This document shows positions 15,290 to 32,000 of a DNA stretch of 32,000 bases, in pieces. This DNA is from Deinococcus radiodurans R1 = ATCC 13939 = DSM 20539 (lineage in GTDB: Bacteria > Deinococcota > Deinococci > Deinococcales > Deinococcaceae): contig NC_001263.1 in assembly GCF_000008565.1 (NCBI RefSeq), forward strand, positions 511,213-543,212, read 5' to 3'. Under the pieces are notes generated by a model. That model ran no database searches. It was given only the letters and a program-made list of their open reading frames with translations, and was not told the DNA's origin. The translations under genes and the position numbers were made by a program. Numbering within the stretch: position 1 is the first letter of the stretch; every line of letters begins with the position of its first letter.

Positions 15290-15354
15290 GCCGCCTTATG
15301 CTCGCCCGCTGAGATAACGCCCCGCCCCGCTCGCCCTTATTTCAGAATTGACCC

Positions 15355-15640: not shown

Positions 15641-15694
15641 TTAAAAACACGAAAACCGCCCAGCCTGAGCGCGTTTTGCCTCTCTCGCTGGGCG
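15641..15694 (-). terminator. candidate intrinsic terminator after the 15747-16118 gene
   Basis: Minus-strand stem CGCCCAGC/GCUGGGCG (15687-15694 / 15657-15664) is followed by GUUUUCGUGUUUUU. The 22-nt loop is long, so this call is tentative. Confidence 0.4.
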
Positions 15695-15746
15695 TGAGCT
15701 TTCGTGTGTTTTCGCCTCTCTCGCCCTCGCTGGGCAGCGCTGGGGG

Positions 15747-16118: not shown

Positions 16119-16177
16119 GCTTTAAGTGTTTCACAGGTTCAAAAACGCCCCCGCTGACAGAACGCTTAAAAATCCGC

Positions 16178-17035: not shown

Positions 17036-17704
17036 CGTGACCGCCCCGCCCCAGGGGTGCCAGGTCTACCCCCCAGCGCTGCCCAGGCTCAGGCAAAGGC
17101 GAAAAAATACCGGGCAAGTTTTCGCCACTTGCCGCCCAGCACCGGGCAAAACCGCGCCGCGTGCGAGCAAAAACGGGGCAGAACTGGGCGCCGTGTAAGC
17201 AAAAACGCCCCCCAGCGCTGCCCAAACTGGGAAAAACCGGGTAAATGTTGCCCCCCGGCGCACACTGAGCGCGTCACACCGAACAGCCCAGAACCGCCCG
17301 CCCAGCGCGTGAAAACAGGGGCGAGAGGGTGTGAGCTGGGGTTATGTAGGCGGATTCTCCTGAGCCAAATTGAGCCGCTCGACGGCTCGCCCGCCGTCCG
17401 GTGTATTACCAGCCCGCCCCCAGAAAACACACCGCCCCCGCGTGCCCGCCTATCACTTTCGTTTAAAACGCGAGTGCGCCCAGCACGGCGAAAACCCCGC
17501 GAGCGGCTGGGCGGTTTTGCTGTTTCAAACGCGAAAACCGCCGCGAGCGGTGAAACATTCTGGGGGCATATCGGCGGCCCCGCCCAAATGGTCAGGCGGG
17601 GGCCGTTTTGCTGACCATTTGCTCAGCGCCCAGCACATGCCCGCGAGGTGCTGGGCGGTCATTTTCCTACCGTCAGGCAAATGACCGCGAGCCGCGCCCA
17701 GCGA

Positions 17705-17730
17705 GCAAAAACCCCCGCGATGGGCGGGGG
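17705..17730 (-). terminator. intrinsic terminator after the 17782-18774 gene
   Basis: Stem CCCCCGC (17712-17718) / GCGGGGG (17724-17730) with a 5-nt loop. On the minus strand it is followed by TTTTTG. Confidence 0.55.
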
Positions 17731-17781
17731 CAGTGTGAGCAGCGGTGAGCAGAACTGAGCAGAAAACGGGGCAGCGCTGGG

Positions 17782-18774: not shown

Positions 18775-18989
18775 CGTTCACCACCTGGGCCGCTGCCCTC
18801 TAGCATCCTGACCGCCCGCTCTAGCTCGCTGACGGTGTACCGTGCCCGCTCGACTTGGGCCGCTCGCCGCGCCTCTGGGGTTTTCGCGTGCGCCTCCATG
18901 AGTACGAGCCTGACGCCCCGCGAGGCCAGCTCCCAGAGCAGGGGGTCAACCTCAGCGGGCCGCCTGAGCCTGAACCGCCCGCCGCTCAC
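18771..18989 (-). CDS. hypothetical small protein
   Basis: 72 aa. The junction GGTGAGCGGTGAGCGG supplies an SD-like box plus the GTG/TGA overlap. Confidence 0.55.
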   Translation of the reverse strand: MSGGRFRLRRPAEVDPLLWELASRGVRLVLMEAHAKTPEARRAAQVERARYTVSELERAVRMLEGSGPGGER

Positions 18990-19246
18990 CGCTCACCCTC
19001 TGGGGGCAGCGCTGCCGCGTCGAGCACCTGGGCGAGCACCGCCCAGCCGTCAGGGGTCAGGGTGCCCGCGCCGGTCACGTACCCCGCCGCGTGTAGGGCG
19101 TCGAGCTGGGCCGCGCTGGGGGGGCGGTGCTCGACGGTCACCGCGAGGGCCTGAACCTGGGCCGCGAGGGTGCCCCAGCCGCTCGCGCTGAGGGCCTGGG
19201 CGTATGCCCTGAGCAGCGCCGGCGCGTATTCGTGCCGCGTGCTCAC
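18986..19246 (-). CDS. hypothetical small protein (possible paralogue of the next gene)
   Basis: 86 aa with a coupled start. It shares a G-x-LTP-x-G-x-A-x-L segment with 19243-19506. Confidence 0.55.
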   Translation of the reverse strand: MSTRHEYAPALLRAYAQALSASGWGTLAAQVQALAVTVEHRPPSAAQLDALHAAGYVTGAGTLTPDGWAVLAQVLDAAALPPEGER

Positions 19247-19506
19247 CTCTCACCCCCAGCGCTGCCCAGCCCTAACCGCTCGACGTGGGCACGTACCGCC
19301 GCGAGGCCCTGGGCGGTGAGCTGCCCGCCTGGGGTGAGCACCCCCAGCCCCTCAGCCGTCGAGCGGGCCGCGTTTTTGAGTCTGCCCAGCCTGGGGGCCT
19401 CGCGGCTGAGCAGCTCGCCCAGCCCCGGCACCGCCTGACCCTCTACCGTGCCCGCGTACACGTCGAGCGCGGCCCAGGTCACGGCGTTCATTTTCGCCCG
19501 CGTCAT
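19243..19506 (-). CDS. hypothetical small protein
   Basis: 87 aa. ATGA-coupled start. It ends in GSAGGER, encoded by a 14-mer copy. Confidence 0.55.
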   Translation of the reverse strand: MTRAKMNAVTWAALDVYAGTVEGQAVPGLGELLSREAPRLGRLKNAARSTAEGLGVLTPGGQLTAQGLAAVRAHVERLGLGSAGGER

Positions 19507-19979
19507 GACTCGCCCCGCTCAGCCTCAGCGAGTTTCAGCCCAGGGCGCAGCGCCCAGCGGGGGGCCACCCCGTGACACATACACCGGGCCGCCGCGTGCA
19601 TGACGGGCAGCGGCGGGGCATCAGGCCCCGGCCCGCCCGGTGCCCAGGGGGTATGAACCGCCCAGCCTAACGAACACTCCCCCATGAGGCGGCCCCAGTC
19701 TGGGGCGGCAGTGAAGTGTCTACAGGTGCCGCACCGCCCGCGCTCAGCCGCCCGCGCTGCCATATCGGGCACGGGGCGAGTCTGGGGGCGCGGCGGGGCA
19801 GCGGGCGGCCCCTGAACCGGGGGCGAGCTGGGCACCGGGGGGCGAGGTGCGGGGCGGGGGGGCAGCGAGGGCACCGGGGCCGGCGCGGGCACCTGAACCG
19901 GTTCAGGCGGGGCAGCGCTGGGGGTAGTTTGCCCGCGTGCCGCCCTGAGCTGGGCGAGAAAATCTGAGGAAAACGTCAC
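19503..19979 (-). CDS. hypothetical Pro-rich / Cys-rich protein
   Basis: 158 aa. A long proline-rich linker is followed by CGTCRHF...C...CMCH. The start overlaps the primase stop. Confidence 0.55.
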   Translation of the reverse strand: MTFSSDFLAQLRAARGQTTPSAAPPEPVQVPAPAPVPSLPPRPAPRPPVPSSPPVQGPPAAPPRPQTRPVPDMAARAAERGRCGTCRHFTAAPDWGRLMGECSLGWAVHTPWAPGGPGPDAPPLPVMHAAARCMCHGVAPRWALRPGLKLAEAERGES

Positions 19980-22651: not shown

Positions 22652-22869
22652 CGAGCACCCCCAGCGCTGCCCAGGTGCGCCCCGCTCGCCTGTAGCTCGC
22701 TGAGCCTGTCGAGCAGCCGCCCCGCGATTTTTTCCAGCTCGCCCAGGGCGTCATACTCGCCCCGTGCCCGCATCTCTGGGGCCTCGCGCTCTATGTACTC
22801 GCTCAGGCTCGCGTGCTGCTCGCATAGCTCGCGGTACAGGACGCGGGGCGAGGGGGTGAACGCGAGCAC
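22648..22869 (-). CDS. hypothetical small protein upstream of the primase (start uncertain)
   Basis: ATGA-coupled to the primase start. The plausible coding part is VLAFTPSPRVLYRELCEQHASLSEYIEREAPEMRARGEYDALGELEKIAGRLLDRLSELQASGAHLGSAGGAR. GTG at 22869 or 22893. The rest of the 218-aa track ORF runs through repeat cluster B. Confidence 0.4.
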   Translation of the reverse strand: MLAFTPSPRVLYRELCEQHASLSEYIEREAPEMRARGEYDALGELEKIAGRLLDRLSELQASGAHLGSAGGAR

Positions 22870-22871
22870 CT

Positions 22872-23150
22872 GGGGAGTAGGAGTAGAAAACACTTCCCCC
22901 CTAAAACCCCCTGGGCTACCCTCCCCCCCCAGCGGGGGCAGGGTGAACAGTTTTTGTGCGCTGGGCGCGGGTTTCTCGCGCTCGCCCTGGGCGGTGCCGG
23001 TGTGAGTAGGAGTAGGCCGCGAGGTTATGGGGGCGGTAGGGGGGGAGACGATTCTACTCAAACCCCCGGCCCCGTTTTCTACTGTTTTCCCCGTCTGGGC
23101 CGGGGTTTTTGCCTCTGCCCCAGAGTAGAAAACAGGTTTTAGGGGTTTCT
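22872..23150. repeat. iteron-like cluster B (related to cluster A)
   Basis: GAGTAGGAGTAG occurs at 22875-22886 and 23014-23025. CCCCTAAAACCCCCTGGGCTACCCTCC at 22897-22923. An inverted copy GAGTAGAAAACAGGTTTTAGGGG at about 23123-23145. CTACTC/CTACTG boxes at 23054-23080. GAGGTTATG is shared with 8901-8909. Confidence 0.7.
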
Positions 23151-23264
23151 GGGGCGCCTTAACACATACGAAAATGCACGCGGCCCCGCTCGCGGTGCTC
23201 TCCGGTAGACTCTGGGCAAGCCCGCCAGCCTGCCCCCGCCCCGTGCCTGCCATATGGGGCGGTT

Positions 23265-23561
23265 TCATTTTTGCCCCTGAGCCGTCGAGCGCTCGGCCCG
23301 CCACGCGTCGAGCTGGGCGCGGTGAATGCGGTACACGGGCCGTGCGGGGGTGCCGTAGTTTTCAGCGAGCAGGCGGCCCGCTTTAATTTCGTTTCTGATG
23401 AGGTCTTGCCCGACGCGCAACAGGGCCGCCGTCTCTACCACGTCGAGCACGGGCAGGGTTGCGAGCTGCTCAGGGGTCAGGGTGGTACGTTTGCGCCCGT
23501 TCGTCACTCTGGGCGAGCGGGTCAGGTTTTCAGCATGTGTGCTGGGGTTAGGGGTGGTCAT
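23265..23561 (-). CDS. excisionase-family / MerR-like HTH DNA-binding protein (candidate Xis)
   Basis: 98 aa. LDVVETAALLRVGQDLIRNEIKAGRL...YRIHRAQLDAWR matches the HTH_17/excisionase pattern. GAGGG lies 8 nt before the ATG. It sits at the opposite end of the element from int. Confidence 0.7.
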   Translation of the reverse strand: MTTPNPSTHAENLTRSPRVTNGRKRTTLTPEQLATLPVLDVVETAALLRVGQDLIRNEIKAGRLLAENYGTPARPVYRIHRAQLDAWRAERSTAQGQK

Positions 23562-23717
23562 GTAAAGCCCTCGCGGTACACCCCAGCCGCGCCCCGCGTC
23601 GAGCGCAGGGGGCTAGGGGTAGAGCTGGGCGGGCCTGACTCGCCGCGTACCGTTTACGGCGTAGGGGTGTCAGGTTGCCCGGTGAGCGCTTCCCCGGTCA
23701 GGGGCAGCGCTGCCAGC

Positions 23718-24548
23718 TCAGGCGAGGGCAGGGGGCGCGAGGGGTGCGGCTGGGGGTATGGCCCGCGAGTAGAGCGGGCGAGGGGCGCGACGAACTGGGG
23801 GCCGCCGCTTAGGTTTACGGGGAGCCATGCGCCGCAGTACCCGTAGCAGCACGCGTACCGTTCGCCAGAATTGCCGCCGCTCGTTACGGTGCTCGCGCCC
23901 TTTGGGAAGTTGGAGAACGAACGAGTAGAGGGACGCCCTGAGTTGCGCTCCTAACGGTTCAAACCCATGCATGAGTTGCTTTACAACTGCCTGCGGGCCG
24001 CCTGGGAGATGCTTTGCAAGACTTAGAAGGATGTTGCCCCAGTGGTAGCCGTACTGGGCCGCTGTGGTTAGCTTTTCAGTCAGATAAGCGGGCTGAGGCG
24101 CGGCTATGTAAGTGCGGGGCAGCCCCAGACTCATTTTCTCTACCGGCGCTGCCCAGGCTGCAAACCCCGCGAGCTGCTCAGCCCCGTTTACCGGCTCCCC
24201 CCCCAGCGCTGCCCCCGCCTGGGCGTCAGGCTTAGCAGCGGGCCGCCCAGGGGCGAGCATGGCCCAGAGGCCCCAGCGGTACACCCCGGCCCCGCGCATG
24301 ACGGCACGGCGGTAGTGGCGAGCAGTCCAGGGGTCAGGGTGAACGCTCAGCGAACCGTCAGGGGTAACGTTGCCCAGGGTGGGTACGTCATGTGCCATAA
24401 GCTCAACCTCGACGCGGCGAGGTTCGCCCAGCCAACCGCCCGTGACGATTTGCACGGGCAGATAAACACAGCCGCCGTTAACCCTTATGACATACGCGCC
24501 CCAGACGTTTACACGTTTAGGGGTGGGCAGGGTCACGGGGGCGGACAT
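23718..24548 (-). CDS. hypothetical protein with a basic C-terminal tail
   Basis: 276 aa. First gene inside attR on the minus strand. The C-terminus reads RRMAPRKPKRRPPVRRAPRP. No family recognised. Confidence 0.55.
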   Translation of the reverse strand: MSAPVTLPTPKRVNVWGAYVIRVNGGCVYLPVQIVTGGWLGEPRRVEVELMAHDVPTLGNVTPDGSLSVHPDPWTARHYRRAVMRGAGVYRWGLWAMLAPGRPAAKPDAQAGAALGGEPVNGAEQLAGFAAWAAPVEKMSLGLPRTYIAAPQPAYLTEKLTTAAQYGYHWGNILLSLAKHLPGGPQAVVKQLMHGFEPLGAQLRASLYSFVLQLPKGREHRNERRQFWRTVRVLLRVLRRMAPRKPKRRPPVRRAPRPLYSRAIPPAAPLAPPALA

Positions 24549-24596
24549 ATCTCTATCTTACGCCCTGTTACGGCTGAGCATAAGTGAGGCGGCTAG

Positions 24597-24620
24597 GGTG
24601 TCAAACGGTTGTCAAACGTA
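24597..24620 (+). promoter_or_regulatory. candidate integrase/Xis arm-type site pair, attR side
   Basis: GGTGTCAAACGGTTGTCAAACGTA. It matches 7265-7288 at 22 of 24 positions and lies in the same orientation. Confidence 0.6.
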
Positions 24621-24748
24621 CTGGGCAGAATGACCGCCCCCCGTACCCCCTGGGGCGTAACGCCTGAGATACATTTTTACCGTCTGGGCGCGGCGCCTGC
24701 CCCTAAGCGCTCGACGGGGCACCCCTCGCCCGTTTTCCCGCTCATCCC

Positions 24749-24794
24749 CCTTCTAAGCGGTCGGTCGTAGGTTCAAGTCCTACAGGGTGCACCA
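24749..24794 (+). repeat. attR: displaced 3' fragment of tRNA-Arg (anticodon loop to CCA)
   Basis: 45 of 46 positions identical to 7150-7195. It has no 5' tRNA half upstream, so it is not a functional tRNA. Confidence 0.9.
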
Positions 24795-24798
24795 GAAG

Positions 24799-24835
24799 AA
24801 CCCCCACTTTTGATGGGGGTTTTACTTTTTGTTTG
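24799..24835 (+). terminator. intrinsic terminator, presumably the original tRNA-Arg terminator
   Basis: Stem CCCCCA (24801-24806) / TGGGGG (24814-24819) with a 7-nt loop, followed by TTTTACTTTTTGTTTG. Confidence 0.6.
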
Positions 24836-24951: not shown

Positions 24952-27030
24952 TTACCGGTAGATAGGAATCTTGACATAGACATTCTTTTCACTGCCGTTG
25001 TCGAAGGTCACTGTTCCGATGGCGTTGATCTGCGTATACGAGCGATCAGAGCGCTCCCGTACAGTGAGTGGCAGAGTAAAGATCAAGGTGCTGCCGTCCT
25101 GAAGAAAGTCAGTCGCCAAAACCCCGGCAGTCTGTGACGGCCAGACGTCTGGAGCATCAATGGGAAATTTCTGCGTCGTACCGTCTTCCTCGTACTCCAG
25201 TTCGTAGTTGAACACGGCACGTATGGGGCTGGTCCCATTAGGAATCGTCTCGATGACGACGGCACAATGTTGGATTTGCCCGGGTGTGAGGTAGGCCTGC
25301 TCTGTGCCACCGGCGTCATCCACGCAGCCGCCAAATGTCCAATTGAGAAATTTGGGGGCGCCCTGCCGCGTTTCTGAACTTTCGGCAACTGTGTCGGCAG
25401 ATGGCTCGGTGGGCAACTCCGTGGTGACGCTGTGCTGTAGTTCCTTGAAGATCTTCCCTGTCTCGCTGGTGATAAAGAGCTGTCCTCCAGTCTTGATCAG
25501 CCCGAGATCGGTGTAGGCCTGCCCGGTCAGTTGTTTGCCAGGCCGGGTCAGGTCATAGCTGTAGTTGAAGCGCACCTGTCGGGTGTTGGCGCCTTCGGAC
25601 AGGGTCTGAACCTCGGAAACCCGCTGATACGAGCGCTCGGGCCAGCGCTTGAAATACCCAGCTTTGTCCTTTCGCAGCGCTGCTTTGGCCTGAAGACCCT
25701 GGTCAAAGTAAGTGACGCGGTCAGCATAGTGATTGATCGCTGCCGTCAGGTCATGACCACTGCCTGCGGCGAGGTAATCGTCCACGAAGGTCACAACTTC
25801 ATCGTCCGTGATGGGGTCTTCACTGGGCGGCAGCGCTTCGACAGGCGTCGCTTCTGGCGGCGGGATGATGGCGGCTGGAGGTTCAGGATCGGTAGGCACA
25901 GGCTCAGCAGGAGGTGAAGGCTCCGGTTCAGGAGGCTGTTCTTCTGTTTGCGACTGCTCTGCGACGGGAACCTGCACCTCCTCCGGAGTTTCAGTGGGTG
26001 CAGAGACGTCATTCTCCGACGTGCTTTCACTGACAGCTGTGACCGTTGAGGATCGCGGTGTGGAGGCCAACTTGTACCCGCCCAGGACAACAAGGCCAAT
26101 CACGAGTGGAATCCACCACGGAAAGCCGGCGCGTGACTGTGTCGGTCCAGGGTCAGGTGACTGGGGAGCCGCCGGGGGTGAAGGAACAGAAGGTGGAGGA
26201 GCGGGAGGTTCCTGCTGCGAAAGGATTGCCTGAGTGGGCTGAGCGCGTCGGAGTTCTTCCAGCACCTCGGCGGCGCTTACGGCGCGGACAGCCGGGTCCA
26301 ACTGCAAGCAGGATTCGAGGGCGTGGGCAACTTGAGGCGGAATTCCTGCTGGCCAGCTGGGGAGCCGCACGCCTTGCTGCCGTGCCGAGACGGGGGACAA
26401 CGCGGTGCCCGTCGCCGCTTCGAGCAGGGTGGCTGCCAGAGCGTACAAATCCGTCTGGGGGGTATAAGGGCCCCCCGAAAGCAGTTCCGGTGCGGCATAA
26501 CGCGGGTCGTGCGGCCAGTGGTCACGAAGTTCCTGCGCGGTGCGCCGTGCAAGTCCAAATTCTGCCAGCAGTGGCCGCTTCTGTGTATCAAACCAGACGG
26601 CTTCCGGACTGATCTGGGTATGGAGCAGAGCGCCCTGATGTGCAGCCGACAAGCCTTCAAACAGCGCCGTTGTCAGGGGCTGAAGCAGTTCCGGTGAAAC
26701 TGGCCCAGCGGACAGCAGCTCACGTAGAGTGATGGTGCGGCGCGGTTCGAAGACCAGAGAGAGCCACTCGCCTTCATCGATCAAATCACGCACGGGCAGC
26801 ACGTGGGGACTGTGCACCTGCAAAAGACTGCGGGCGTACCTCAACCAAGTCTGCCTTGCCCGTTGACCCCGAGGTGTGCCAGGGTCTGCAACCGCATAGA
26901 AACTGACCAAAACCTGCTCGTTCCACTCGGTGTGAGCTCGGTAAAGTGCCTCGTGTGGGGTGCTGTGCAACTGCTCATCGAGCAGATACCTTCCGGCTCT
27001 CCGGGCTCCTTGCTCAGGCCACTCAGCCAT
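24952..27030 (-). CDS. single-pass transmembrane pseudokinase (degenerate Ser/Thr kinase fold, Pro-rich linkers, extracytoplasmic NTF2-like and beta-rich domains)
   Basis: ATG at 27030 lies 6 nt after AGGAGG and overlaps the LRV gene stop by 8 nt. The kinase fold is recognisable (YAAPELL, DLYALAATLLEAATG, LQLDPAVRA), but the catalytic positions are substituted (see findings). TM helix FPWWIPLVIGLVVLGGY. The C-terminal part begins DDEVVTFVDDYLAAGSGHDL... Confidence 0.85.
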   Translation of the reverse strand: MAEWPEQGARRAGRYLLDEQLHSTPHEALYRAHTEWNEQVLVSFYAVADPGTPRGQRARQTWLRYARSLLQVHSPHVLPVRDLIDEGEWLSLVFEPRRTITLRELLSAGPVSPELLQPLTTALFEGLSAAHQGALLHTQISPEAVWFDTQKRPLLAEFGLARRTAQELRDHWPHDPRYAAPELLSGGPYTPQTDLYALAATLLEAATGTALSPVSARQQGVRLPSWPAGIPPQVAHALESCLQLDPAVRAVSAAEVLEELRRAQPTQAILSQQEPPAPPPSVPSPPAAPQSPDPGPTQSRAGFPWWIPLVIGLVVLGGYKLASTPRSSTVTAVSESTSENDVSAPTETPEEVQVPVAEQSQTEEQPPEPEPSPPAEPVPTDPEPPAAIIPPPEATPVEALPPSEDPITDDEVVTFVDDYLAAGSGHDLTAAINHYADRVTYFDQGLQAKAALRKDKAGYFKRWPERSYQRVSEVQTLSEGANTRQVRFNYSYDLTRPGKQLTGQAYTDLGLIKTGGQLFITSETGKIFKELQHSVTTELPTEPSADTVAESSETRQGAPKFLNWTFGGCVDDAGGTEQAYLTPGQIQHCAVVIETIPNGTSPIRAVFNYELEYEEDGTTQKFPIDAPDVWPSQTAGVLATDFLQDGSTLIFTLPLTVRERSDRSYTQINAIGTVTFDNGSEKNVYVKIPIYR

Positions 27031-29617
27031 GGTGGGCCTCCTGACGCGCCGCATGTTGACGGTCCTGCCGTGCCTGCTCGATATTCGGGTGATCGAGGCG
27101 AGACGCCATCCGAACTGCCCTGGGCGTGGCAGCCGGGTGCACGATGACAGCGGACAGGATCAGCACGTCCGAAAGAGCCCGTGCCGAAGCGCGTTGTTTT
27201 GACCAGCGCCGCCAGCGCCTGAGCAGAACATGTTCACCGAACGGCAGGCGGCGGGTCCAGCGCTCAAGTCGCAAGAAGCGCTCGTAAGCCGCGTCGTAGG
27301 CCAGATGTTCCAGGGTGCCACCGTCCGTATTTGAATGGTGGGCCACTTCCAGCCGCAGGTGACGATGATTAGCCAGTTGCCGCAGAAGGGCCGGAGTACA
27401 GGCAGGGTTGCGGAGAATGCTCCGCTGAACGGACGCCTGAGAGTCCATGGTCAGCTTCTCCAGGGTGGGAGGAGGCGTGCGCGGATCGCGGGCGACGGCT
27501 TCCCGAATCTCGGTCCTCGTGACATCGGCCAGCTCGGCCAGCAGTTCCGGCGTGGCGAGTGGGTGACGGACCAAGGACAACAGAATGTCTCCGTCGTTGA
27601 GAGAAGCCTTCAACACGACGCTCAGCACATTGGGGTCCACATCCTTGCGCCGGAGCAATTTTTGACGGAGCTGCGCACTCGCATCTTGCGCGAGCACAAC
27701 CTGCAATCCGAAGGCGAGTTCCTCACTGCGACTGATGATGCCGGACCTGACTTCTTCCTCCGGGTCATTGACCAGGACCTCAAGTGTTTCCTGAGGCGTG
27801 CGGGGATGTGAGGCGACCTTACAGCGCACGCGCAAGGCGTCACTCTGCCCGAGTGAAGCCAGCGCCTCCGCACTCACGTCTGGCTGACCCACTTCCTCCC
27901 ATTCGAGGTCATTGAGTTTGGCCTGCACCTGTCCGTAGCGTGGATGCTGTCGGATGACCGGACGCATAGGCTGTTCCGGCAGCCGGCGTTCCAGCGCGCC
28001 ACCAGGGGCAGCAGGATTAAGGAGGACGTTCAGGCGAACGTCCCGCAGGGGGTCGTCACTGAGGGCGACCAGAAGGTCATCCGGCGTGCTGACATTGCTG
28101 CTCAGCCCCTCCCGCACCCGGGCGTCGAACAGGGGAAGAGCCGCCAGTTCCTGTCCTGGCGTGCTCGGGCTCGCGGCCTGCGCAACGCGCTGCACTTCGG
28201 GCACCTGATCACCCAGCAACAGGGCACGGGCAGCCGACGGGGTATGCGGATTGAGGCCCACTTGCGCCCGCACCCGGGGGCTGCGGTCCCTGCTGAGCCG
28301 GACCAGCATCTCGGCGGGCGCTTGCTGGGCGGCAACGGCGAGCTTCGCATTGCGGCGGCGAGTCTCCAACGCCTGCTGCGCCTGAGCCTGGCTCAGGGGC
28401 GCCCGGCGCAGGTTGGCGACGAACTGCACGCGTTCGTTGGCGTCCTGAGCGAGCGCGTCTAGAACCTCACTGGGTGTATAGGGATGAGCCGCCACCGCCT
28501 CACGGATGGCGTAGCGCGCGTCTCCTGCCAGCAGGCTCAGGGCTTCTGGTGGGCTGCTCGGGTTGCGGGCCACTTGCAACCGGACGGCGTGGTCTCCGTC
28601 ACCGGCCAGTGCCAACAGGGTCGGTCCACTGGCGTGAGGGTGGCTGGCGACATGCTCACGAATGGTCACATGGTCCGGGTCCTGCGCCAGAGCAGCCAGT
28701 TCTTCCGGCTCTGCATTCGGGTTCTCGGCGGCGGCGGAGCGCACCCACCAGTCCGGGTCCACCGTCAGGCCCAGTCGGGCTTCTCGGGGAAGGGCCGGAT
28801 TGCGGGCCACTGCCGCCCGCTCCTCCCAGGTGCCTTTCCAGGCAAAGTTCAGCAGCAGGCTTTCTTCTAGCGGGCCTTCTTCCAGGCGCCGCAACAACGT
28901 TTCCCGCGCCTCACCGTAGGGCCGCTGCTCATCCAGCCACAGCAGCAGGTCCAGCGGAAGCAGTGGGTGGCGCGCCGCCAGTGACCAGAGCCTGCGGGTG
29001 GCCTGAATTTCCGCCGTTTCGTCCGCCGTGATTTCTGGATCAGTTCGGCGGTCGAGCAGGCGCTCGCGGAGCGGCCTGAGCACTTGCGCTGCGCACTGAG
29101 AGACCGTTGCTGTGTCCTGCGGCGCAGCCGCTTCGGGTACCGCAGGCGGCTCGGCGAGAGGAGCGGCGGGGGCTGAAGGAGACAATTTGGCTGCTGCTTT
29201 CCGGATTCGCATAGGCACGGAAGCGTTCGTCTTGAGGTACTCACAGAGGCCAGGATTTTCCTGCGCCTGGGCAATGATCCAGGTTTCTCCCCGACTGGGC
29301 CGATAGTCGAGAAGCTGTTTGATGTGCCCATTGAGGATCAGTTCGATGACTGTCTCGTCGGTCGTGGCCGGATGCTGCGCCGCTATGGCGGCTGTATATG
29401 TCCCCAGAATGCCGAGCAGGGCGAGCTGCTCGGGCGTCAGAAGCTGGGGCGTCCGCTCGGCGAGGTCTATCACCTGCGCGAGCTCGGGGGGAAAACTCAT
29501 GTGTTTCCGCGCCGCGCGCCGCACAGCCGAGTTGGAATGCGCGGCCAACTGCGCCAGGCGCGCCGCTGGTGTGCCAGGGTCGCTGGCTTCTTGAAGCAAA
29601 CCTGAGAGGGCGGTCAT
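27023..29617 (-). CDS. LRV (leucine-rich repeat variant) / HEAT-like alpha-solenoid repeat protein, 864 aa
   Basis: At least 15 units of about 23-24 aa of the form D-x-D/E-x-x-VR-x-x-(V/A)A-x-(N/H)P-x-x-P-x-x-x-L-x-x-LA. An example stretch is DWWVRSAAAENPNAEPEELAALAQDPDHVTIREHVASHPHASGPTLLALAGDGDHAVRLQVARNPSSPPEALSLLAGDARYAIREAVAAHPYTPSEVLDALAQD. Confidence 0.85.
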   Translation of the reverse strand: MTALSGLLQEASDPGTPAARLAQLAAHSNSAVRRAARKHMSFPPELAQVIDLAERTPQLLTPEQLALLGILGTYTAAIAAQHPATTDETVIELILNGHIKQLLDYRPSRGETWIIAQAQENPGLCEYLKTNASVPMRIRKAAAKLSPSAPAAPLAEPPAVPEAAAPQDTATVSQCAAQVLRPLRERLLDRRTDPEITADETAEIQATRRLWSLAARHPLLPLDLLLWLDEQRPYGEARETLLRRLEEGPLEESLLLNFAWKGTWEERAAVARNPALPREARLGLTVDPDWWVRSAAAENPNAEPEELAALAQDPDHVTIREHVASHPHASGPTLLALAGDGDHAVRLQVARNPSSPPEALSLLAGDARYAIREAVAAHPYTPSEVLDALAQDANERVQFVANLRRAPLSQAQAQQALETRRRNAKLAVAAQQAPAEMLVRLSRDRSPRVRAQVGLNPHTPSAARALLLGDQVPEVQRVAQAASPSTPGQELAALPLFDARVREGLSSNVSTPDDLLVALSDDPLRDVRLNVLLNPAAPGGALERRLPEQPMRPVIRQHPRYGQVQAKLNDLEWEEVGQPDVSAEALASLGQSDALRVRCKVASHPRTPQETLEVLVNDPEEEVRSGIISRSEELAFGLQVVLAQDASAQLRQKLLRRKDVDPNVLSVVLKASLNDGDILLSLVRHPLATPELLAELADVTRTEIREAVARDPRTPPPTLEKLTMDSQASVQRSILRNPACTPALLRQLANHRHLRLEVAHHSNTDGGTLEHLAYDAAYERFLRLERWTRRLPFGEHVLLRRWRRWSKQRASARALSDVLILSAVIVHPAATPRAVRMASRLDHPNIEQARQDRQHAARQEAHHG

Positions 29618-29620
29618 AGG

Positions 29621-30226
29621 CTAGGGTGTACTCTTCTGCGCGTACTCGACGACGATTTCTACGCGCTCGTTTTGCGGCGCGAACTTGTGACCGTTGAAAG
29701 GCGTTTGACCACCGCGGGCGGCCACCGCCAGCCGGTTCGGGCTGATGCCACCACGCAGGTAAAACGCGGCGGCGACTGCACTCGCTCGCGTAGCAGACAG
29801 GTCCCACCGCTCCGGTGTATTGGGCCTGGAGGTCTGGGTGTGCCCCTCGATCCGGATCCGCTTCCAGTTCTTTTTCTGAGAGCGCAGCACCTGAGCGAAA
29901 TCCACCAGGGCGGTCTCTCCCTCAGGCGTCAGAACAGCGCTCTCACCGACAAACATGTTCTCCGAACGAAAAACCCAACGCTGGGCGCCTGGAGGATCGT
30001 TGCGTTGCACGGGTGACAGGAGCTGAGGCCGCACCGAAAGCGGCGCACGCCGGACAGCAGCGACGACTAGCTCCTGGGCCTTGCGGTACTTCACCTGATC
30101 CCAGCCCGCTTGCCCCACCGCCAGAATACCGCCGATGAAAAAAATCAGGACAAAAATCAGGTTCAGCGTCAGGTCACTGAAAGCGATGTAAGGGTTGGTG
30201 TCGCCCCGAAGACGCGACGTGCTCAT
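29621..30226 (-). CDS. MotB/ZorB-like protein: N-terminal TM helix with conserved Asp plus an OmpA-like peptidoglycan-binding domain
   Basis: ATG directly follows GGAGGGAAGG. YIAFSDLTLNLIFVLIFFIGGILAV places Asp18 at the TM entry, as in MotB/ExbD/TolR. The C-terminus IRIEGHTQ...WDLSATRASAVAAAFYLRGGISPNRLAVAARGGQTP is an OmpA_C-like core. Confidence 0.85.
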   Translation of the reverse strand: MSTSRLRGDTNPYIAFSDLTLNLIFVLIFFIGGILAVGQAGWDQVKYRKAQELVVAAVRRAPLSVRPQLLSPVQRNDPPGAQRWVFRSENMFVGESAVLTPEGETALVDFAQVLRSQKKNWKRIRIEGHTQTSRPNTPERWDLSATRASAVAAAFYLRGGISPNRLAVAARGGQTPFNGHKFAPQNERVEIVVEYAQKSTP

Positions 30227-30250
30227 CCTTCCCTCCAGGCACGGCGGCGC

Positions 30251-31486
30251 TCAATCCCCACTTTGTACCTCGGCGCGCGAGCGGCTCAGGGCGCGGGACA
30301 ATTCGCTGAAGGAGTGATCGAGACGTGCGGCGTAATTGCTCTGCTCGGTGCGGAAGGTCTGGCCCGACTCTTCAAAGCTGTTACTTGCCCGGCCCAGTTG
30401 ATCGCCGACACGGGTGATCTGCTTGAGCAGTTCGGACGTGGTGGCCTGCACCGTGTCCTGGAGGCGACTGACCGTCGTCGCTTGCTGAGCGAGGTTCTGC
30501 TGCAACTCCGTGCTGCTCGTGCGCAGGGACGAGGCGGCGCTTTCCTGAGCCTGCACCAGGTCCGACACGCCGCGACTCAGGCCCACAGTGAGTTCCTTGA
30601 CAGACGTGTCCATCTGCCCGAAAACTTGCTCAATCTGTACACTGGTGTCCGAGAGTTGCGTCAGGCTCTGGCCCAGAGTGTCGCCCGCCTTGCCGAGCAC
30701 GCTTTCGAGTTGGACCGCCACGTCTTGCAGCCTCTTGTGAATGTCCTGAAAGCTATTGCCCGCGTCGCGCAGGTAGCGGCCCATGCGCTCCATTTGCGAA
30801 GTGATGGCGCGGGGGAAGGTGGCTGGGACAAGTTCGGCGTGTACAAAGGCGTTGAGTTCGTCCTCAAAGGTTTCCTGCGCGCGGGCGGCCAGCGCAAAGG
30901 CTACCCCGGTGCCCAGGCTTAGCAGGATGCCCCACAGACTTGCCCCAAACGCCCCCTGCATGACACTCATGGTGCTGGCAAGGGCGTCGGCAAGTTCTCC
31001 CGGCTCTGTGGCCCGCGCGGCGTTGCGGATCGGAGTCACGAGGGTTCCGATTGACCCGGCGAGGCCCATCACCGTGCCCAGCAAACCAGCGAGCATCAGC
31101 AGGTTGGGAATGTTGCGCGCCGACGAGAGGCCAGCTTGTGCGGCGGCGCCCACGGCCTGCGTCGCCGCCTGCAAGTCCGGCGTGGCAAGAGTCCGGGCGC
31201 GGGTCACAGCCACCACCGCTTGCCGCACGGCGCTGGTGGCGGGCAAGGCCTGCGCGGCACGCCAGGCGTCCTCAGCCACTTCGTCGGATTCTGGCGGGTC
31301 CTCGGTGTCTAGGGCAGGCAAGACTACCTGGCGGATTTGTTCTAGAAAGCTCCGTTCCTGTTGGCGCCGCTGACGAGCCACGGCCAGGGCCCGCATGAAG
31401 TAAAGAGTAAGCGGCAACATGACGGCGAGCAGGACCAGCCAGCCTTCGGGCCTCAACTGAAAGAGGGTATTCAGAAATTCACTCAT
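30251..31486 (-). CDS. MotA/ExbB/TolQ-family proton-channel protein with a ~215-aa C-terminal helical tail (ZorA-like architecture)
   Basis: TM1 is WLVLLAVMLPLTLYF. The channel core NIPNLLMLAGLLGTVMGLAGSIG ... MQGAFGASLWGILLSLGTGVAFALAA carries the LLGTVxG signature. Residues from about 195 to 411 are Q/S/T/L-rich helix with no TM segment. Confidence 0.85.
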   Translation of the reverse strand: MSEFLNTLFQLRPEGWLVLLAVMLPLTLYFMRALAVARQRRQQERSFLEQIRQVVLPALDTEDPPESDEVAEDAWRAAQALPATSAVRQAVVAVTRARTLATPDLQAATQAVGAAAQAGLSSARNIPNLLMLAGLLGTVMGLAGSIGTLVTPIRNAARATEPGELADALASTMSVMQGAFGASLWGILLSLGTGVAFALAARAQETFEDELNAFVHAELVPATFPRAITSQMERMGRYLRDAGNSFQDIHKRLQDVAVQLESVLGKAGDTLGQSLTQLSDTSVQIEQVFGQMDTSVKELTVGLSRGVSDLVQAQESAASSLRTSSTELQQNLAQQATTVSRLQDTVQATTSELLKQITRVGDQLGRASNSFEESGQTFRTEQSNYAARLDHSFSELSRALSRSRAEVQSGD

Positions 31487-31489
31487 GGT

Positions 31490-32000
31490 TTACCCGAACA
31501 CGCTGTAGCGTTGGCCGAAGGGATGCTCAACGTCATCAGGGTGGTATTCGCACTTCAGGCCCTGGCCGATGACGTCCTCGAAGGTTTCGCCCACTGGGCC
31601 ACCACAGACCCGGCAGTAGTACCCCTGAGTGTTGGCAACGCGGCCTTTGGGCAGCCGTTCTCCCTTGTCCTTGTACAGGCCGTCAATGAGGTTGTTATCG
31701 GGCGGAAATGTCTCCAGCAGGGCCTGTCTCAGGTCAGCATCCTGCGTCAGGTACGCCATCAGGGCCGTCTGGGCTGCCTGATCGCTCCAGTCCCGAACAG
31801 CGCGGGCGCTGCTGCTGCTCATATTGTCGTGTAGCCATTTGACGTAAGCCTGCCTTCCCTCGGCGGGCGTGGGGTAACGGCCCACGATGGCTTTGCGCCG
31901 TGCCTCTATCTCGCTACGCAGGTACGTCGCGGCATTTGTGAGGCTCTTGGAGGGCCGCGAGCTGTCCTGCGGCTCAAAGGCCAGTTGCCGCGCGGCCTTG
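31490..32000 (-). CDS. hypothetical protein, C-terminal part only (first gene of the operon; frame stays open to the right edge)
   Basis: The track start GTG 31885 is not the real start. The same frame reads on without a stop to position 32000 (...KAARQLAFEPQDSSRPSKSLTNAATYLRSEIEARRKAIVGRYPTPAEG...). It contains YYCRVCGGPVGETFEDVIGQGLKCEYH (CxxC...CxxH). The stop is 3 nt before the MotA-like start. Confidence 0.65.
   Translation of the reverse strand, partial: KAARQLAFEPQDSSRPSKSLTNAATYLRSEIEARRKAIVGRYPTPAEGRQAYVKWLHDNMSSSSARAVRDWSDQAAQTALMAYLTQDADLRQALLETFPPDNNLIDGLYKDKGERLPKGRVANTQGYYCRVCGGPVGETFEDVIGQGLKCEYHPDDVEHPFGQRYSVFG

What the first reader, a model, noticed from the sequence alone, without database searches (positions are those of the whole stretch)
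24952..32000. Five-gene stator-like operon (MotA-tail / MotB-OmpA / LRV solenoid / TM pseudokinase / Cys-His protein): candidate undescribed Zorya-like system
**Seen in sequence.**
- Five minus-strand genes are packed with 3-nt, 24-nt and 3-nt gaps and one 8-nt overlap, so this is almost certainly a single operon.
- Two genes form a MotA/ExbB-type channel plus a MotB-type partner with a TM Asp and an OmpA peptidoglycan anchor.
- The MotA-like protein carries a long cytoplasmic helical tail.

**Established knowledge.** Deinococci are non-motile. A MotAB-like pair in which the A subunit has a long tail is the hallmark of the ZorAB core of Zorya anti-phage systems.

**Inference.**
- The partners here are not ZorC/D/E-like. 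I see no helicase, nuclease or HNH motifs.
- Instead there is an 864-aa LRV solenoid and a membrane-spanning pseudokinase with an extracytoplasmic sensor-like region.
- That suggests an envelope-sensing, ion-driven signalling or defence module with a different effector logic.
- Location supports this: it starts about 160 bp outside attR of a tRNA-integrated element and lies about 22 kb from an Mrr gene.
Basis: partly seen in the sequence, partly recalled or inferred. Interest (0 to 1): 0.9.

Follow-up and report, generated by a model that had tools for sequence, protein, structure and literature searches.

The report
Tubulin-like GTPase operon with Zorya-like motor
The five genes are the downstream part of a seven-gene Deinococcus radiodurans operon (DR_0534–DR_0540), catalogued in 2010 but never tested, that pairs a Zorya-like ion-driven membrane motor with a giant tubulin/FtsZ-like GTPase, which gives a testable handle on a protein family whose function has been unknown for 15 years.

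Summary
The five tightly packed minus-strand genes are real. The "Cys-His protein" is not a small gene: it is the last 170 residues of a 1070-aa tubulin-superfamily GTPase (FtsZl1, DR_0538) that runs off the window. Two more genes lie upstream, so the operon has seven genes, DR_0540–DR_0534 of D. radiodurans R1. This exact locus appears in Additional file 5 of Makarova & Koonin 2010 as an "FtsZl1 operon", so it is not undescribed. Its function has never been tested.

New here:
- The MotA-like protein belongs to a family of about 284 representatives. Its nearest annotated relatives are ZorA, below family thresholds.
- It sat next to FtsZl1 in every one of 22 loci with enough flank.
- The conserved core is vWA-like/FHA-like membrane protein, small 3-TM protein (not detected at every locus), FtsZl1, ZorA-like subunit and MotB/OmpA-like subunit with an invariant Asp.
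- The LRV solenoid and the pseudokinase are lineage-specific accessories.
- The cassette is mobile: four Deinococcus plasmids and no shared flanks.
- Known defence genes neighbour it only occasionally, and no ZorC–G-like partner exists.

Verdict: not a member of Zorya types I–III. It is a Zorya-like stator coupled to a tubulin-like protein. A defence role is possible but unproven.

The parts
24952..27030 (-). DR_0534: membrane-spanning pseudokinase. Cytoplasmic degenerate kinase domain (~26206-27009), TM helix (26068-26124), Pro/Glu-rich linker, then an extracytoplasmic region (24955-26067) with a weak SnoaL-like match. Lineage-specific accessory gene.
   Evidence: Pkinase 9.2e-18 and SnoaL_2 0.0025. 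G-loop, beta3 Lys, HRD Asp and Asn are all replaced in the D. radiodurans clade but intact in the D. misasensis variant. Only the N-terminal ~270 aa align between species. D. sonorensis carries an SH3 + beta-helix ectodomain instead.
27023..29617 (-). DR_0535: 864-aa cytoplasmic LRV/HEAT-like alpha-solenoid. Recurrent but non-universal accessory.
   Evidence: LRV 4.8e-57 with 11 repeats and LRV_2 3e-18. No TM segment. No PADLOC or NCBIfam hit. Orthologues are 47-50% identical in Deinococcus. LRV proteins also occur in L018, L021, L022 and L015. No homologue detected in the five metagenome loci, and no LRV gene is called in L017 or L024.
29621..30226 (-). DR_0536: B subunit of the motor (MotB/ZorB type). 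Single TM helix (30113-30187) with Asp18 (30173-30175), and an OmpA-like peptidoglycan-binding domain (29663-29956).
   Evidence: OmpA 1.4e-20. ZorB1 5.9e-7. MotD, MotB and MotS models 1e-11 to 5e-7, all below cut-off. PDB MotS 2.3e-5. The NPYIAFSD motif has an invariant Asp in 23/23 sequences.
30251..31486 (-). DR_0537: A subunit of the motor (ZorA-like). TM1 31376-31444, compact helical cytoplasmic domain, TM2 31037-31111 (LLGT138V), TM3 30884-30946 (Ser/Thr183), helical cytoplasmic tail 30254-30883.
   Evidence: 3 TM segments. AF2 model with pLDDT 71, all-helical, tail helices 227-266 and 271-409. Top 50 Foldseek PDB hits are all 5:2-motor A subunits: TolQ 9ddm, ExbB 5sv0 (TM-score 0.66, normalised by the target), ZorA 8vvn/8qyk, PomA/MotA. 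MotA_ExbB matches 17/20 family members. ZorA models match 16/20. 284 representatives at E<=1e-10.
31490..32000 (-). 3' end (residues 901-1070) of DR_0538, the 1070-aa FtsZl1 tubulin-superfamily GTPase. The gene continues beyond the window.
   Evidence: The frame is open to base 32000. The full gene lies at L001 6785-9997, and the window is identical to L001 over 11,750 nt. Tubulin_2 1.4e-73. GTP motifs GLGSTG, GAGxIRMVGR and GGTCSG are >=90% conserved in 114 homologues.
31523..31615 (-). Conserved C-terminal Cys/His knuckle of FtsZl1: C1030-x2-C1033 ... C1051 ... H1060. Probable zinc site (inference).
   Evidence: C1030, C1051 and H1060 are >=90% conserved and C1033 is 80-89% conserved across 114 full-length homologues. 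Coordinates.
24750..24795 (+). Second copy of the 3' 45 nt of tRNA-Arg(TCT), the att repeat that bounds the 17.6-kb integrated element at 7196-24795. It marks the boundary just outside the operon and is not part of the operon.
   Evidence: tRNA at 7119-7195. The repeat was read directly and has 1 mismatch. Integrase 7287-8621 and Prim-Pol/DUF3987 19976-22651 lie inside the element.
24797..24823 (.). GC-rich hairpin with T-runs between the tRNA remnant and the 3' end of the operon. Candidate bidirectional terminator (inference).
   Evidence: Terminator-like site with 10 pairs. Sequence read. A similar hairpin follows the intact tRNA.

Best explanation
The finding is the downstream five-sevenths of the FtsZl1 operon DR_0540-DR_0534 of Deinococcus radiodurans R1.

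**Core (shown by synteny).** The conserved core is a trans-envelope module of four to five proteins:
- a type-I membrane protein with a vWA-like ectodomain and an FHA-like cytoplasmic domain (DR_0540);
- a small 3-TM protein (DR_0539);
- a large cytoplasmic tubulin/FtsZ-superfamily GTPase (FtsZl1, DR_0538);
- an ion-driven stator unit built from a ZorA-like A subunit with a cytoplasmic helical tail (DR_0537) and a MotB/ZorB-like B subunit with a channel Asp and a peptidoglycan anchor (DR_0536).

**Proposed mechanism (inferred, by analogy with ZorAB and other 5:2 motors).**
1. An A5B2 complex anchors to the cell wall and conducts ions through the Asp18 / Thr138 / Ser183 path.
2. Its tail couples envelope state to FtsZl1.
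3. GTP-dependent assembly of FtsZl1 at the membrane is the output.

**Accessories.** The LRV solenoid (DR_0535) and the transmembrane pseudokinase (DR_0534) are accessories found in Deinococcus-lineage and closely related loci. They are probably a cytoplasmic scaffold and an extracytoplasmic sensor or adaptor, possibly docking on the FHA-like domain.

**Biological role (inferred).** The cassette is an accessory, horizontally moving module. Its role is most likely an envelope-triggered conflict or envelope-damage response, not motility or core cell division.
For: **Identity of the locus**
- Searches identify it as DR_0534-DR_0540. The window is identical to L001 over 11,750 nt.

**FtsZl1**
- Tubulin_2 1.4e-73, with GTP motifs conserved.

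**A subunit**
- The fold matches 5:2-motor A subunits.
- MotA_ExbB matches 17/20 family members.
- ZorA is the only annotated family matched: PADLOC 16/20, and NCBIfam ZorA_2 at best 2.6e-10.
- Thr138 is invariant, and residue 183 is Ser or Thr throughout the family alignment.

**B subunit**
- OmpA 1.4e-20 and an invariant Asp in 23/23 sequences.

**Linkage**
- The order 0540 / (0539) / FtsZl1 / ZorA-like / MotB-like recurs in 7 loci found through the A subunit in genomes.
- It recurs in 8 loci found through FtsZl1.
- It recurs in 5/5 metagenome loci found with distant A-subunit relatives.
- It also holds on the D. actinosclerus plasmid.

**DR_0540**
- The AF2 model has pLDDT 82. The N-domain hits are vWA domains and the C-domain hits are FHA domains. 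UniRef names two orthologues VWFA.

**Accessory status of LRV and kinase**
-. An active kinase replaces the pseudokinase in D. misasensis.

**Mobility**
- Four Deinococcus plasmids carry the cassette.
- D. radiodurans flank genes find no match in 12 other loci.
- Cassette GC is 62.4% against 66.5% for the window's left flank and 69.4% for the integrated element.
- The cassette sits beside a tRNA integration hot spot.

**Analogy**
- ZorAB senses envelope perturbation and signals through its tail (abstract read).
Against: - No experiment exists for any FtsZl1 operon. Searchable literature still treats Tubulin_2 proteins as uncharacterised.
- The 5:2 stoichiometry, the tail-FtsZl1 contact and FtsZl1 polymerisation are all untested here.
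- The window protein itself matches MotA_ExbB only at E=0.4 and ZorA models at about 1e-4. Part of those alignments lies in the low-complexity coiled-coil tail.
- The vWA and FHA assignments rest on weak Foldseek hits (E 1e-2 to 1e-1). Pfam gives no support in 17 family members.
- The core contains no recognisable toxic or enzymatic effector.
- Clear defence neighbours (Hma, McrBC, Tiamat) occur in only 3 of about 16 annotated contexts. The family is absent from IMG/VR viral contigs and from PADLOC.
- The core is strongly conserved: FtsZl1 is 76-80% identical across Deinococcus species. That would equally fit a structural, housekeeping-type machine.
Confidence: 0.5

Rival explanations
1. Constitutive membrane-remodelling or envelope-biogenesis machine, as proposed by Makarova & Koonin 2010. 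FtsZl1 filaments and envelope-spanning partners shape membranes, vesicles or the complex Deinococcus envelope, with no link to conflict and no trigger.
For: - This is the published prediction for this very operon.
- All partners are membrane- or wall-associated.
- The best structural matches include TolQ, the motor of the Tol-Pal envelope system.
- The core is strongly conserved.
- There is no effector domain.
- Defence neighbours are infrequent.
Against: - Distribution within Deinococcus is patchy, with about 48 clusters at 90% identity in 5.8 billion proteins.
- The cassette is carried on four plasmids.
- No flank is conserved.
- One copy is disrupted by IS630.
- These are traits of a dispensable accessory cassette. 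In addition, no TolA, TolB, Pal or TonB gene is in the operon.
Confidence: 0.25
2. One reading: a new Zorya subtype dedicated to anti-phage defence. ZorAB-like sensing is passed to the LRV solenoid and the pseudokinase, which act as the effector module.
For: - ZorA and ZorB are the closest annotated families, and the A subunit carries a tail.
- Defence genes lie next to the cassette in three genomes: HmaA E=0, TmtA 1e-175, McrBC. Mrr would be about 4 kb away if the integrated element were removed.
- The ectodomain of the pseudokinase is variable.
Against: - LRV and kinase are missing from many loci that keep FtsZl1 and the motor, so they cannot be the essential effectors.
- Scores are far below family cut-offs: 18.6 bits against 100 for NCBIfam ZorA_2. 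In the wider family the best PADLOC ZorA hit is only 7e-13.
- The model has no strands anywhere, whereas ZorA is described as having extra beta-sheet structure in its cytoplasmic domain (paper read).
- No nuclease or helicase partner is present.
- Enrichment of defence neighbours is not demonstrated.
Confidence: 0.1
3. Ton/Tol-like energy transducer. The proton-driven motor powers an extracytoplasmic process such as adhesion, uptake or outer-layer tethering through the vWA-like ectodomain protein. FtsZl1 serves only as a cytoplasmic organiser.
For: - IM-tethered vWA proteins next to TolQR-like motors were recently proposed as force transducers (paper read).
- DR_0540 has a vWA-like ectodomain.
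- The A subunit resembles ExbB and TolQ most closely in fold.
Against: - DR_0540 has the opposite topology to TolA/TonB-like transducers: signal peptide, ectodomain, TM helix, then a cytoplasmic domain. Its TM helix has no SHLS/His motif.
- The B subunit carries an OmpA-type anchor, unlike ExbD and TolR.
- This reading leaves the cytoplasmic tail and the 1070-aa GTPase without a role.
Confidence: 0.08
4. Motility, gliding or secretion motor of the MotAB, AglRQS or GldLM kind.
For: The proteins belong to the same 5:2 motor superfamily. NCBIfam MotB, MotD and MotS models are the best B-subunit hits.
Against: - The A subunit has 3 TM helices rather than the 4 of MotA.
- MotA and PomA are the weakest structural matches.
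- All NCBIfam Mot scores are far below cut-off.
- No flagellar, gliding or T9SS gene lies in any of the loci.
- Deinococcus is non-motile (general knowledge).
Confidence: 0.03

Closest known systems
FtsZl1 operons (Makarova & Koonin 2010, Biol Direct 5:33, PMC2875224)
   Same: This is the same locus. DR_0534-DR_0540 is listed in their Additional file 5 with FtsZl1, MotA/TolQ/ExbB, OmpA, 'LLR' and Ser/Thr kinase labels. DR_0536 is their representative of the 'OmpA-like' family. The vWA, FtsZl1, B7, 'flagellar motor protein' (COG1360) order they list for cyanobacteria parallels the core found here.
   Different: - They read the OmpA-like proteins as beta-stranded membrane proteins and left the gene between FtsZl1 and OmpA ('B7') unassigned outside Deinococcus.
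- Here the pair is read as a ZorAB-type stator: invariant Asp, 3-TM A subunit and tail. It was next to FtsZl1 in every locus examined.
- The Deinococcus variant has no P-loop GTPase gene among its seven genes. Its vWA domain has a degenerate MIDAS motif (AFSTGH).
- Whether B7 is homologous to DR_0537 was not tested.
Zorya anti-phage systems, ZorAB core (types I-III)
   Same: - The A subunit is MotA/ExbB-type with a long helical cytoplasmic tail.
- The B subunit has a TM Asp and a peptidoglycan-binding domain.
- ZorA and ZorB are the only defence families matched.
- ZorA chains appear among the fold matches.
   Different: - No ZorC/D, ZorE or ZorF/G partner is present. The conserved partner is a tubulin-like GTPase.
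- Scores are far below family cut-offs.
- The cytoplasmic domain is all-helical, without the ZorA beta-sheet insert.
- The tail is about 200 aa here and about 400 aa at the median in the wider family. E. coli ZorA has a tail of about 700 angstroms.
- No phage phenotype is known.
TolQR / ExbBD 5:2 motors (Tol-Pal, Ton)
   Same: These are the best structural matches: TolQ 9ddm, and ExbB 6ye4 and 5sv0 (TM-score 0.66, normalised by the target). They share the 3-TM topology, the compact helical cytoplasmic domain and the pore Thr in TM2.
   Different: - The B subunit has an OmpA-type anchor, unlike TolR and ExbD.
- The A subunit has a C-terminal tail of about 200 aa.
- No TolA, TolB, Pal or TonB gene is nearby.
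- No NCBIfam TolQ or ExbB model matches at E<=0.01.
IM-tethered vWA 'force transducers' next to TolQR-like motors (Mol Biol Evol 2025, PMC12204202)
   Same: A 5:2-type motor is encoded together with a membrane-tethered protein that exposes a vWA fold outside the cytoplasm.
   Different: - DR_0540 has its TM helix after the vWA domain and a cytoplasmic FHA-like domain.
- It has no SHLS motif and no Asp-bearing transpore helix.
- That paper mentions neither tubulin nor Deinococcus.
GAP1-N2 GTPase / tubulin / vWA conflict systems (Kaur, Burroughs, Iyer & Aravind 2020, eLife, PMC7159879)
   Same: A tubulin-superfamily protein with a long helical C-terminal region is encoded with vWA proteins and membrane components. 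The authors predict a role in biological conflict.
   Different: Those systems centre on GAP1-N2 GTPases and FNIII proteins in Firmicutes and Actinobacteria. That paper does not mention MotA, and its only 'ZorA' hit is an author name in the reference list. The Deinococcus operon has no such GTPase.

Membership tests
FtsZl1 operon (Makarova & Koonin 2010) | Large (~1000 aa) protein with an N-terminal FtsZ/tubulin-like GTPase domain (Pfam Tubulin_2) | tested here: met
   Tubulin_2 1.4e-73 over residues 11-366 of the 1070-aa protein. DR_0538 is named as FtsZl1 in the paper's tables. G-box motifs are >=90% conserved.
FtsZl1 operon (Makarova & Koonin 2010) | Adjacent vWA-domain protein | tested here: inconclusive
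   The DR_0540 model (pLDDT 82) gives weak vWA hits: CLCA1 VWA at probability 0.89-0.99, E about 2e-2. UniRef names two orthologues VWFA. Pfam matches none of 17 members, and the MIDAS motif is degenerate.
FtsZl1 operon (Makarova & Koonin 2010) | Frequent partners: OmpA-family protein and Ser/Thr kinase | tested here: met
   OmpA 1.4e-20 and Pkinase 9.2e-18. The kinase is catalytically dead in this clade.
FtsZl1 operon (Makarova & Koonin 2010) | Frequent partner: diverged P-loop GTPase | tested here: not met
   None of the seven gene products has a P-loop GTPase match. This feature is frequent but not obligatory.
Zorya (types I-III) | ZorA: MotA/ExbB-type membrane domain recognised by ZorA family models | tested here: inconclusive
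   The fold matches 5:2-motor A subunits, including ZorA 8vvn and 8qyk. NCBIfam ZorA_2 scores 18.6 bits against a cut-off of 100. Family-level best hits are 2.6e-10 (NCBIfam) and 6e-10 (PADLOC). In the wider family the best is 7e-13, with at most 23/64 members matching any one ZorA model.
Zorya (types I-III) | ZorA: long C-terminal helical tail in the cytoplasm | tested here: met
   Helices 227-266 and 271-409 follow TM3. The topology follows from 3 TM segments. The tail is shorter than in E. coli ZorA.
Zorya (types I-III) | ZorA-specific beta-sheet elements in the cytoplasmic domain (per mBio 2025, PMC12505986) | tested here: not met
   DSSP of the AF2 model shows helices only. The feature is as stated in the paper read. 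The result depends on the model (pLDDT 71).
Zorya (types I-III) | ZorB: TM helix with conserved Asp plus peptidoglycan-binding domain | tested here: met
   Asp18 is invariant in 23/23 sequences. OmpA 1.4e-20. ZorB1 5.9e-7.
Zorya (types I-III) | Subtype-defining soluble partners: ZorC+ZorD, ZorE, or ZorF+ZorG | tested here: not met
   None of the seven proteins matches a ZorC-G model in PADLOC.
Zorya (types I-III) | Protection against phage | not testable with these tools
   No experimental data were found for DR_0534-DR_0540.
Tol-Pal / Ton systems | TolQ/ExbB with TolR/ExbD, plus TolA/TonB (SHLS helix) and TolB-Pal or TonB-dependent transporters | tested here: not met
   The A-subunit fold is similar. 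However, the B subunit is OmpA-type, no TolA, TolB, Pal or TonB gene lies in the locus, and no NCBIfam TolQ or ExbB hit appears.
Flagellar stator MotAB/PomAB | 4-TM MotA with a torque-generating cytoplasmic interface, in a flagellated organism | tested here: not met
   The A subunit has 3 TM segments. MotA and PomA are the weakest fold matches, with target-normalised TM-scores of 0.29-0.35. Mot NCBIfam scores are far below cut-off.

The most novel reading that the evidence does not exclude
FtsZl1 together with its dedicated ZorA-like/MotB-like stator would be a widespread, previously unrecognised class of envelope-triggered immune or conflict system. A cell-wall-anchored ion-driven rotary motor would transmit an invasion or damage signal through its tail to a tubulin-superfamily GTPase. 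Polymerisation of that GTPase, rather than a nuclease, would be the effector step, for example by sealing, sequestering or arresting the infected cell.
Probability: 0.3. Interest if true: 0.85.

Novelty: new variant of a known kind. Interest (0 to 1): 0.6.

Why it matters
FtsZl1 (Pfam Tubulin_2) has been an orphan branch of the tubulin/FtsZ superfamily since 2010. Later surveys set it aside as uncharacterised.

This clade of FtsZl1 was encoded next to a ZorA-like/MotB-like stator in every locus examined. That turns a vague 'membrane remodelling' prediction into a concrete, mutable model, with defined targets: the channel Asp, the pore Thr, tail length and the G-box residues. Deinococcus radiodurans is a genetically tractable host for these tests.

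The result would also widen the Zorya paradigm. The same kind of tail-bearing 5:2 motor would serve a cytoskeletal GTPase instead of nucleases. This would add a new output class to ion-driven rotary motors.

If the role proves to be defence, it would be the first tubulin-based bacterial immune effector that I am aware of.

Tried and rejected
- **Single-sequence and profile searches of the A subunit against PDB sequences.** They returned only coiled-coil noise from the tail. The question was settled by structure prediction and Foldseek.
- **FtsZl1 profile against PDB sequences.** Nothing was found, not even tubulin or FtsZ.
- **Pfam on 17 DR_0540 homologues.** No vWA or FHA match.
- **Flank synteny.** tblastn with D. 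radiodurans flank genes found no hit in 12 loci.
- **PADLOC on 41 flank ORFs of 8 Deinococcales loci.** Mostly helicase-type hits (DpdF, PsyrT, DinG, BrxH, Cas3-like) and one REase_II hit. I therefore rejected the claim of a defence island.
- **Viral contigs.** No FtsZl1 found.
- **Plasmid tblastn with a distant A-subunit relative.** Only the same four Deinococcus plasmids.
- **Cluster look-up of 10 distant relatives.** No taxon names returned.
- **Fusion search.** No fusion of the ZorA-like protein with FtsZl1, 0540-like or MotB-like domains in 146 representatives.
- **First metagenome scan.** It failed because the alignment was too diverse. It was repeated with A5.
- **Literature.** Searches for tubulin with Zorya, stator or defence, and for the DR_05xx locus tags, found no functional study.
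- **Readings rejected.** Flagellar stator, Tol-Pal and a known Zorya subtype (see the membership tests).

Full report
**1. What is in the sequence**

Five minus-strand ORFs fill 24952-32000:
- a 700-aa kinase-like protein (692 aa from Met9);
- an 864-aa LRV protein;
- a 201-aa OmpA-domain protein;
- a 411-aa membrane protein;
- an ORF whose frame is still open at base 32000.

The gaps are 3, 24 and 3 nt. The overlap is 8 nt when the kinase starts at the Met that aligns with its orthologues.

An exact-protein look-up placed the 411-aa protein on 2.65-Mb chromosomes. The window's reverse complement is identical to locus L001 over 11,750 nt. In L001 the truncated 'Cys-His' ORF is the C-terminus of a 1070-aa protein with a full-length Pfam Tubulin_2 match (1.4e-73). 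It is preceded by a 109-aa and a 439-aa gene, with a 1-nt overlap at each junction. The operon therefore has seven genes.

**2. The locus is already in the literature**

Additional file 5 of Makarova & Koonin 2010 (PMC2875224) lists it as follows:

| Gene | Their label |
|---|---|
| DR_0540 | hypothetical |
| DR_0539 | hypothetical |
| DR_0538 | FtsZl1 |
| DR_0536 | OmpA family |
| DR_0535 | 'LLR' |
| DR_0534 | Ser/Thr kinase |

The same order is listed on D. deserti plasmid 2. The authors predicted an 'FtsZl1-centred membrane remodelling system'. They described the DR_0536 family as beta-stranded membrane proteins.

I found no functional study of these genes. A 2023 survey of the tubulin/FtsZ family sets Tubulin_2 proteins aside as divergent and uncharacterised.

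**3. The stator pair**

*B subunit, DR_0536*
- It has one TM helix and an OmpA domain (1.4e-20).
- Its N-terminal motif NPYIAFSD carries an Asp that is invariant in 23/23 family members. This is the position of the channel Asp of MotB, ExbD, TolR and ZorB (established knowledge).

*A subunit, DR_0537*
- It has three TM segments.
- The window protein barely matches Pfam MotA_ExbB (E=0.4), but 17 of 20 family members do, best 6e-5.
- An AF2 model built on a 20-sequence alignment (pLDDT 71) is entirely helical. Long helices span residues 227-266 and 271-409 after TM3.
- All top-50 Foldseek PDB hits are A subunits of 5:2 motors. TolQ and ExbB come first (TM-score up to 0.66 when normalised by the target), then ZorA, then PomA and MotA.
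- TM2 holds an invariant LLGT138V. TM3 holds Ser or Thr at position 183. These are the pore positions known from ExbB and TolQ (established knowledge).

*Relationship to ZorA*
- The only annotated families matched at the sequence level are ZorA families. PADLOC matched 16/20 members, best 6e-10. NCBIfam ZorA_2 matched 10/20, best 2.6e-10. No TolQ, ExbB or MotA NCBIfam model matched.
- All scores are far below family cut-offs. Part of the alignments lies in the coiled-coil tail.
- A profile search of 1.84 billion representatives found 284 relatives at E<=1e-10. In a sample of 64, the best ZorA hit was only 7e-13.
- This is a sister family of ZorA, not ZorA itself. It combines an ExbB/TolQ-like compact helical cytoplasmic domain with a ZorA-like tail and a MotB/ZorB-like anchor. 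The model contains no strands at all, so it lacks the beta-sheet elements reported for ZorA.

**4. The conserved unit**

- *Found through the A subunit in genomes.* All seven genes are collinear in five Deinococcus species loci. A sixth lacks only a detectable kinase. A 45%-GC Deinococcales MAG has six genes before its contig ends.
- *Found through FtsZl1.* Eight further loci keep the order 0540-like / (0539-like) / FtsZl1 / 410-600-aa ZorA-like / OmpA-type B subunit. These are Calidithermus terrae, D. misasensis, D. roseus, D. sonorensis, D. knuensis and three metagenome contigs. The genes after the B subunit vary: LRV, an active kinase with a beta-propeller, a beta-propeller protein, or nothing.
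- *Found through distant A-subunit relatives in metagenomes.* All five loci with enough flank show the same order. Three of them also have the small 3-TM gene. None has an LRV or kinase homologue.
- *On the D. actinosclerus plasmid.* The gene sizes and order in its annotation also match.

Counting these 21 loci and the window's own, the ZorA-like gene sat next to FtsZl1 in 22 of 22 loci with enough flank. The core is the vWA-like/FHA-like protein, FtsZl1 and the stator pair, usually with the 3-TM protein. LRV and the kinase or pseudokinase are recurrent accessories.

Conservation between Deinococcus species follows the same ranking:

| Protein | Identity |
|---|---|
| FtsZl1 | 76-80% |
| B subunit | 76-79% |
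| A subunit | 69-73% |
| DR_0540 | 57-61% |
| LRV | 47-50% |
| Kinase | ~47%, N-terminal domain only |

The cyanobacterial order vWA / FtsZl1 / 'B7' / COG1360 'flagellar motor protein' in the 2010 tables looks like the same core. I could not fetch B7 to test this.

**5. The other proteins**

*FtsZl1*
- It has no TM segment.
- It retains GLGSTG, GAGxIRMVGR and GGTCSG motifs at >=90% conservation in 114 homologues.
- Its 700-aa C-terminal region matches nothing in Pfam or PDB sequences.
A zinc site is an inference.

*DR_0540*
- It has a signal peptide, an alpha/beta ectodomain, a TM helix, a Gly-rich linker and a beta-rich cytoplasmic domain.
- Foldseek hits are weak but fall into two consistent classes. 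The ectodomain hits vWA domains. The C-terminal domain hits FHA domains such as OdhI and Ki67, at probability 0.96-0.97.
- UniRef names two orthologues VWFA. Pfam sees nothing. I treat both assignments as tentative.

*DR_0534*
- In the D. radiodurans clade it has lost the glycine loop, the beta3 Lys, the HRD Asp and the catalytic Asn. The D. misasensis counterpart keeps all of them.
- Its ectodomain differs between species: SnoaL-like here, SH3 plus beta-helix in D. sonorensis.

**6. Genomic setting**

- The operon ends 157 bp from a 45-nt repeat of the tRNA-Arg 3' end. This repeat bounds a 17.6-kb integrated element carrying an integrase and a Prim-Pol/DUF3987 gene. The operon lies outside the element.
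- The cassette occurs on four Deinococcus plasmids, one copy split by IS630.
- D. radiodurans flank genes have no match near the cassette in 12 other loci.
- Cassette GC is 62.4%, against 66.5% for the window's left flank and 69.4% for the integrated element.
- Known defence genes neighbour it in C. terrae (HmaA, E=0, plus DUF1156), D. misasensis (McrBC) and D. sonorensis (Tiamat TmtA, 1e-175, plus an integrase).
- In D. radiodurans, Mrr is 21.6 kb away, or about 4 kb if the element is discounted.
- Other contexts are metabolic. Forty-one flank ORFs from eight further loci gave mostly helicase-type hits and one REase_II hit.
- With roughly 3 clear cases in 16 contexts, I cannot claim enrichment.
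- The core proteins have no PADLOC model. FtsZl1 was not found on viral contigs.

**7. How it most likely works**

*Shown*
- A stator-type A/B pair with the channel residues, a wall anchor and a cytoplasmic tail.
- Invariable genetic linkage, in the loci examined, to a cytoplasmic tubulin-superfamily GTPase and a bitopic protein that spans the membrane.
- Accessory status and mobility.

*Inferred*
- An A5B2 complex forms.
- As in ZorAB, wall engagement and ion flow are converted through the tail into a cytoplasmic signal (abstract read).
- FtsZl1 receives that signal, and its GTP-dependent assembly at the membrane is the output.
- The vWA-like ectodomain and the pseudokinase ectodomain supply extracytoplasmic inputs. 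LRV and the FHA-like domain act as scaffolds.

Conflict and envelope-damage response cannot be separated by my evidence, and I give them together about 0.5. Constitutive membrane remodelling gets about 0.25.

**8. Comparison and novelty**

- The cluster is a member of the published FtsZl1 operon class. It is in fact one of that class's listed examples.
- It is not a member of Zorya types I-III. The partner genes are absent, scores are below threshold, and the ZorA beta insert is missing.
- It is not Tol-Pal or Ton, and it is not a flagellar stator.
- I did not find in the searchable literature the reading that this FtsZl1 clade comes with a dedicated ZorA-like 5:2 motor. The same holds for reinterpreting the 'OmpA-like' family as its B subunit.
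- I therefore rate it a new variant of a known kind: a tail-bearing 5:2 motor with a tubulin-like partner. The gene cluster itself is not new.
- Interest is 0.6. It is surprising to motor and tubulin specialists and makes a 15-year-old orphan family testable. It is neither undescribed nor shown to be a defence system.

Noticed in passing
window 7196-24795 (att repeats 7151-7195 and 24750-24795): A 17.6-kb element is integrated in tRNA-Arg(TCT). It is bounded by a 45-nt direct repeat with 1 mismatch. It carries a tyrosine integrase (7287-8621, -), a Prim-Pol/DUF3987 primase-helicase (19976-22651, -) and an HTH_17 excisionase-like gene (23265-23561, -). Each repeat copy is followed by a GC hairpin with a T-run.
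   Followed up: partly
window 2351-3361 (-): This is an Mrr-type type IV restriction endonuclease (Mrr_N + Mrr_cat; PADLOC mREase_IV 7e-65). It would lie only about 4 kb from the operon end if the integrated element were absent.
   Followed up: partly
window 55-2424 (+): A 789-aa ORF with a GTG start has no Pfam or PADLOC match and overlaps the 3' end of the Mrr gene by 74 nt. Whether it is a real gene is unclear, because long spurious ORFs are common in high-GC DNA.
   Followed up: no
L016 14658-16436 (D. misasensis, JQKG01000003): In the distant variant of the cassette, the position of the pseudokinase is taken by a kinase with intact catalytic motifs fused to a beta-propeller. A McrBC system follows. 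This suggests the D. radiodurans-clade pseudokinase descends from an active signalling kinase.
   Followed up: partly
plasmid NZ_CP086382.1 96078-100362 (D. radiophilus): The FtsZl1 gene on this plasmid is split into two pieces by an IS630-family transposase. The cassette is therefore dispensable, at least there.
   Followed up: no
L019 (Nostoc punctiforme plasmid pNPUN01, 132604-149635): A vWA protein and a tubulin-like (Tubulin_2-type) protein sit directly downstream of CHAT-domain and caspase-family genes on a conjugative plasmid. No stator pair appears in the (incomplete) gene table. This FtsZl1 context fits the conflict-system reading of Kaur et al. 2020.
   Followed up: no
L014 (Deinococcales MAG, JANYFS010000559): This locus carries the cassette at only 45% GC, against 60-70% in the other Deinococcus loci. 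Either the lineage is unusual or the bin assignment is doubtful.
   Followed up: no
Makarova & Koonin 2010, Additional file 6 (DR_0536 family): The published comment describes the DR_0536 'OmpA-like' family as having beta-stranded transmembrane domains. The sequences instead show a single alpha-helical TM segment with an invariant Asp, followed by an OmpA-type peptidoglycan-binding domain.
   Followed up: yes
DR_0537 family (146 representatives returned): Estimated tail length after TM3 has a median of about 400 aa among the 46 representatives where it could be measured. It is only about 200 aa in the D. radiodurans clade, at the short end of the range seen. FtsZl1 length stays about 1050-1075 aa throughout.
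   Followed up: partly
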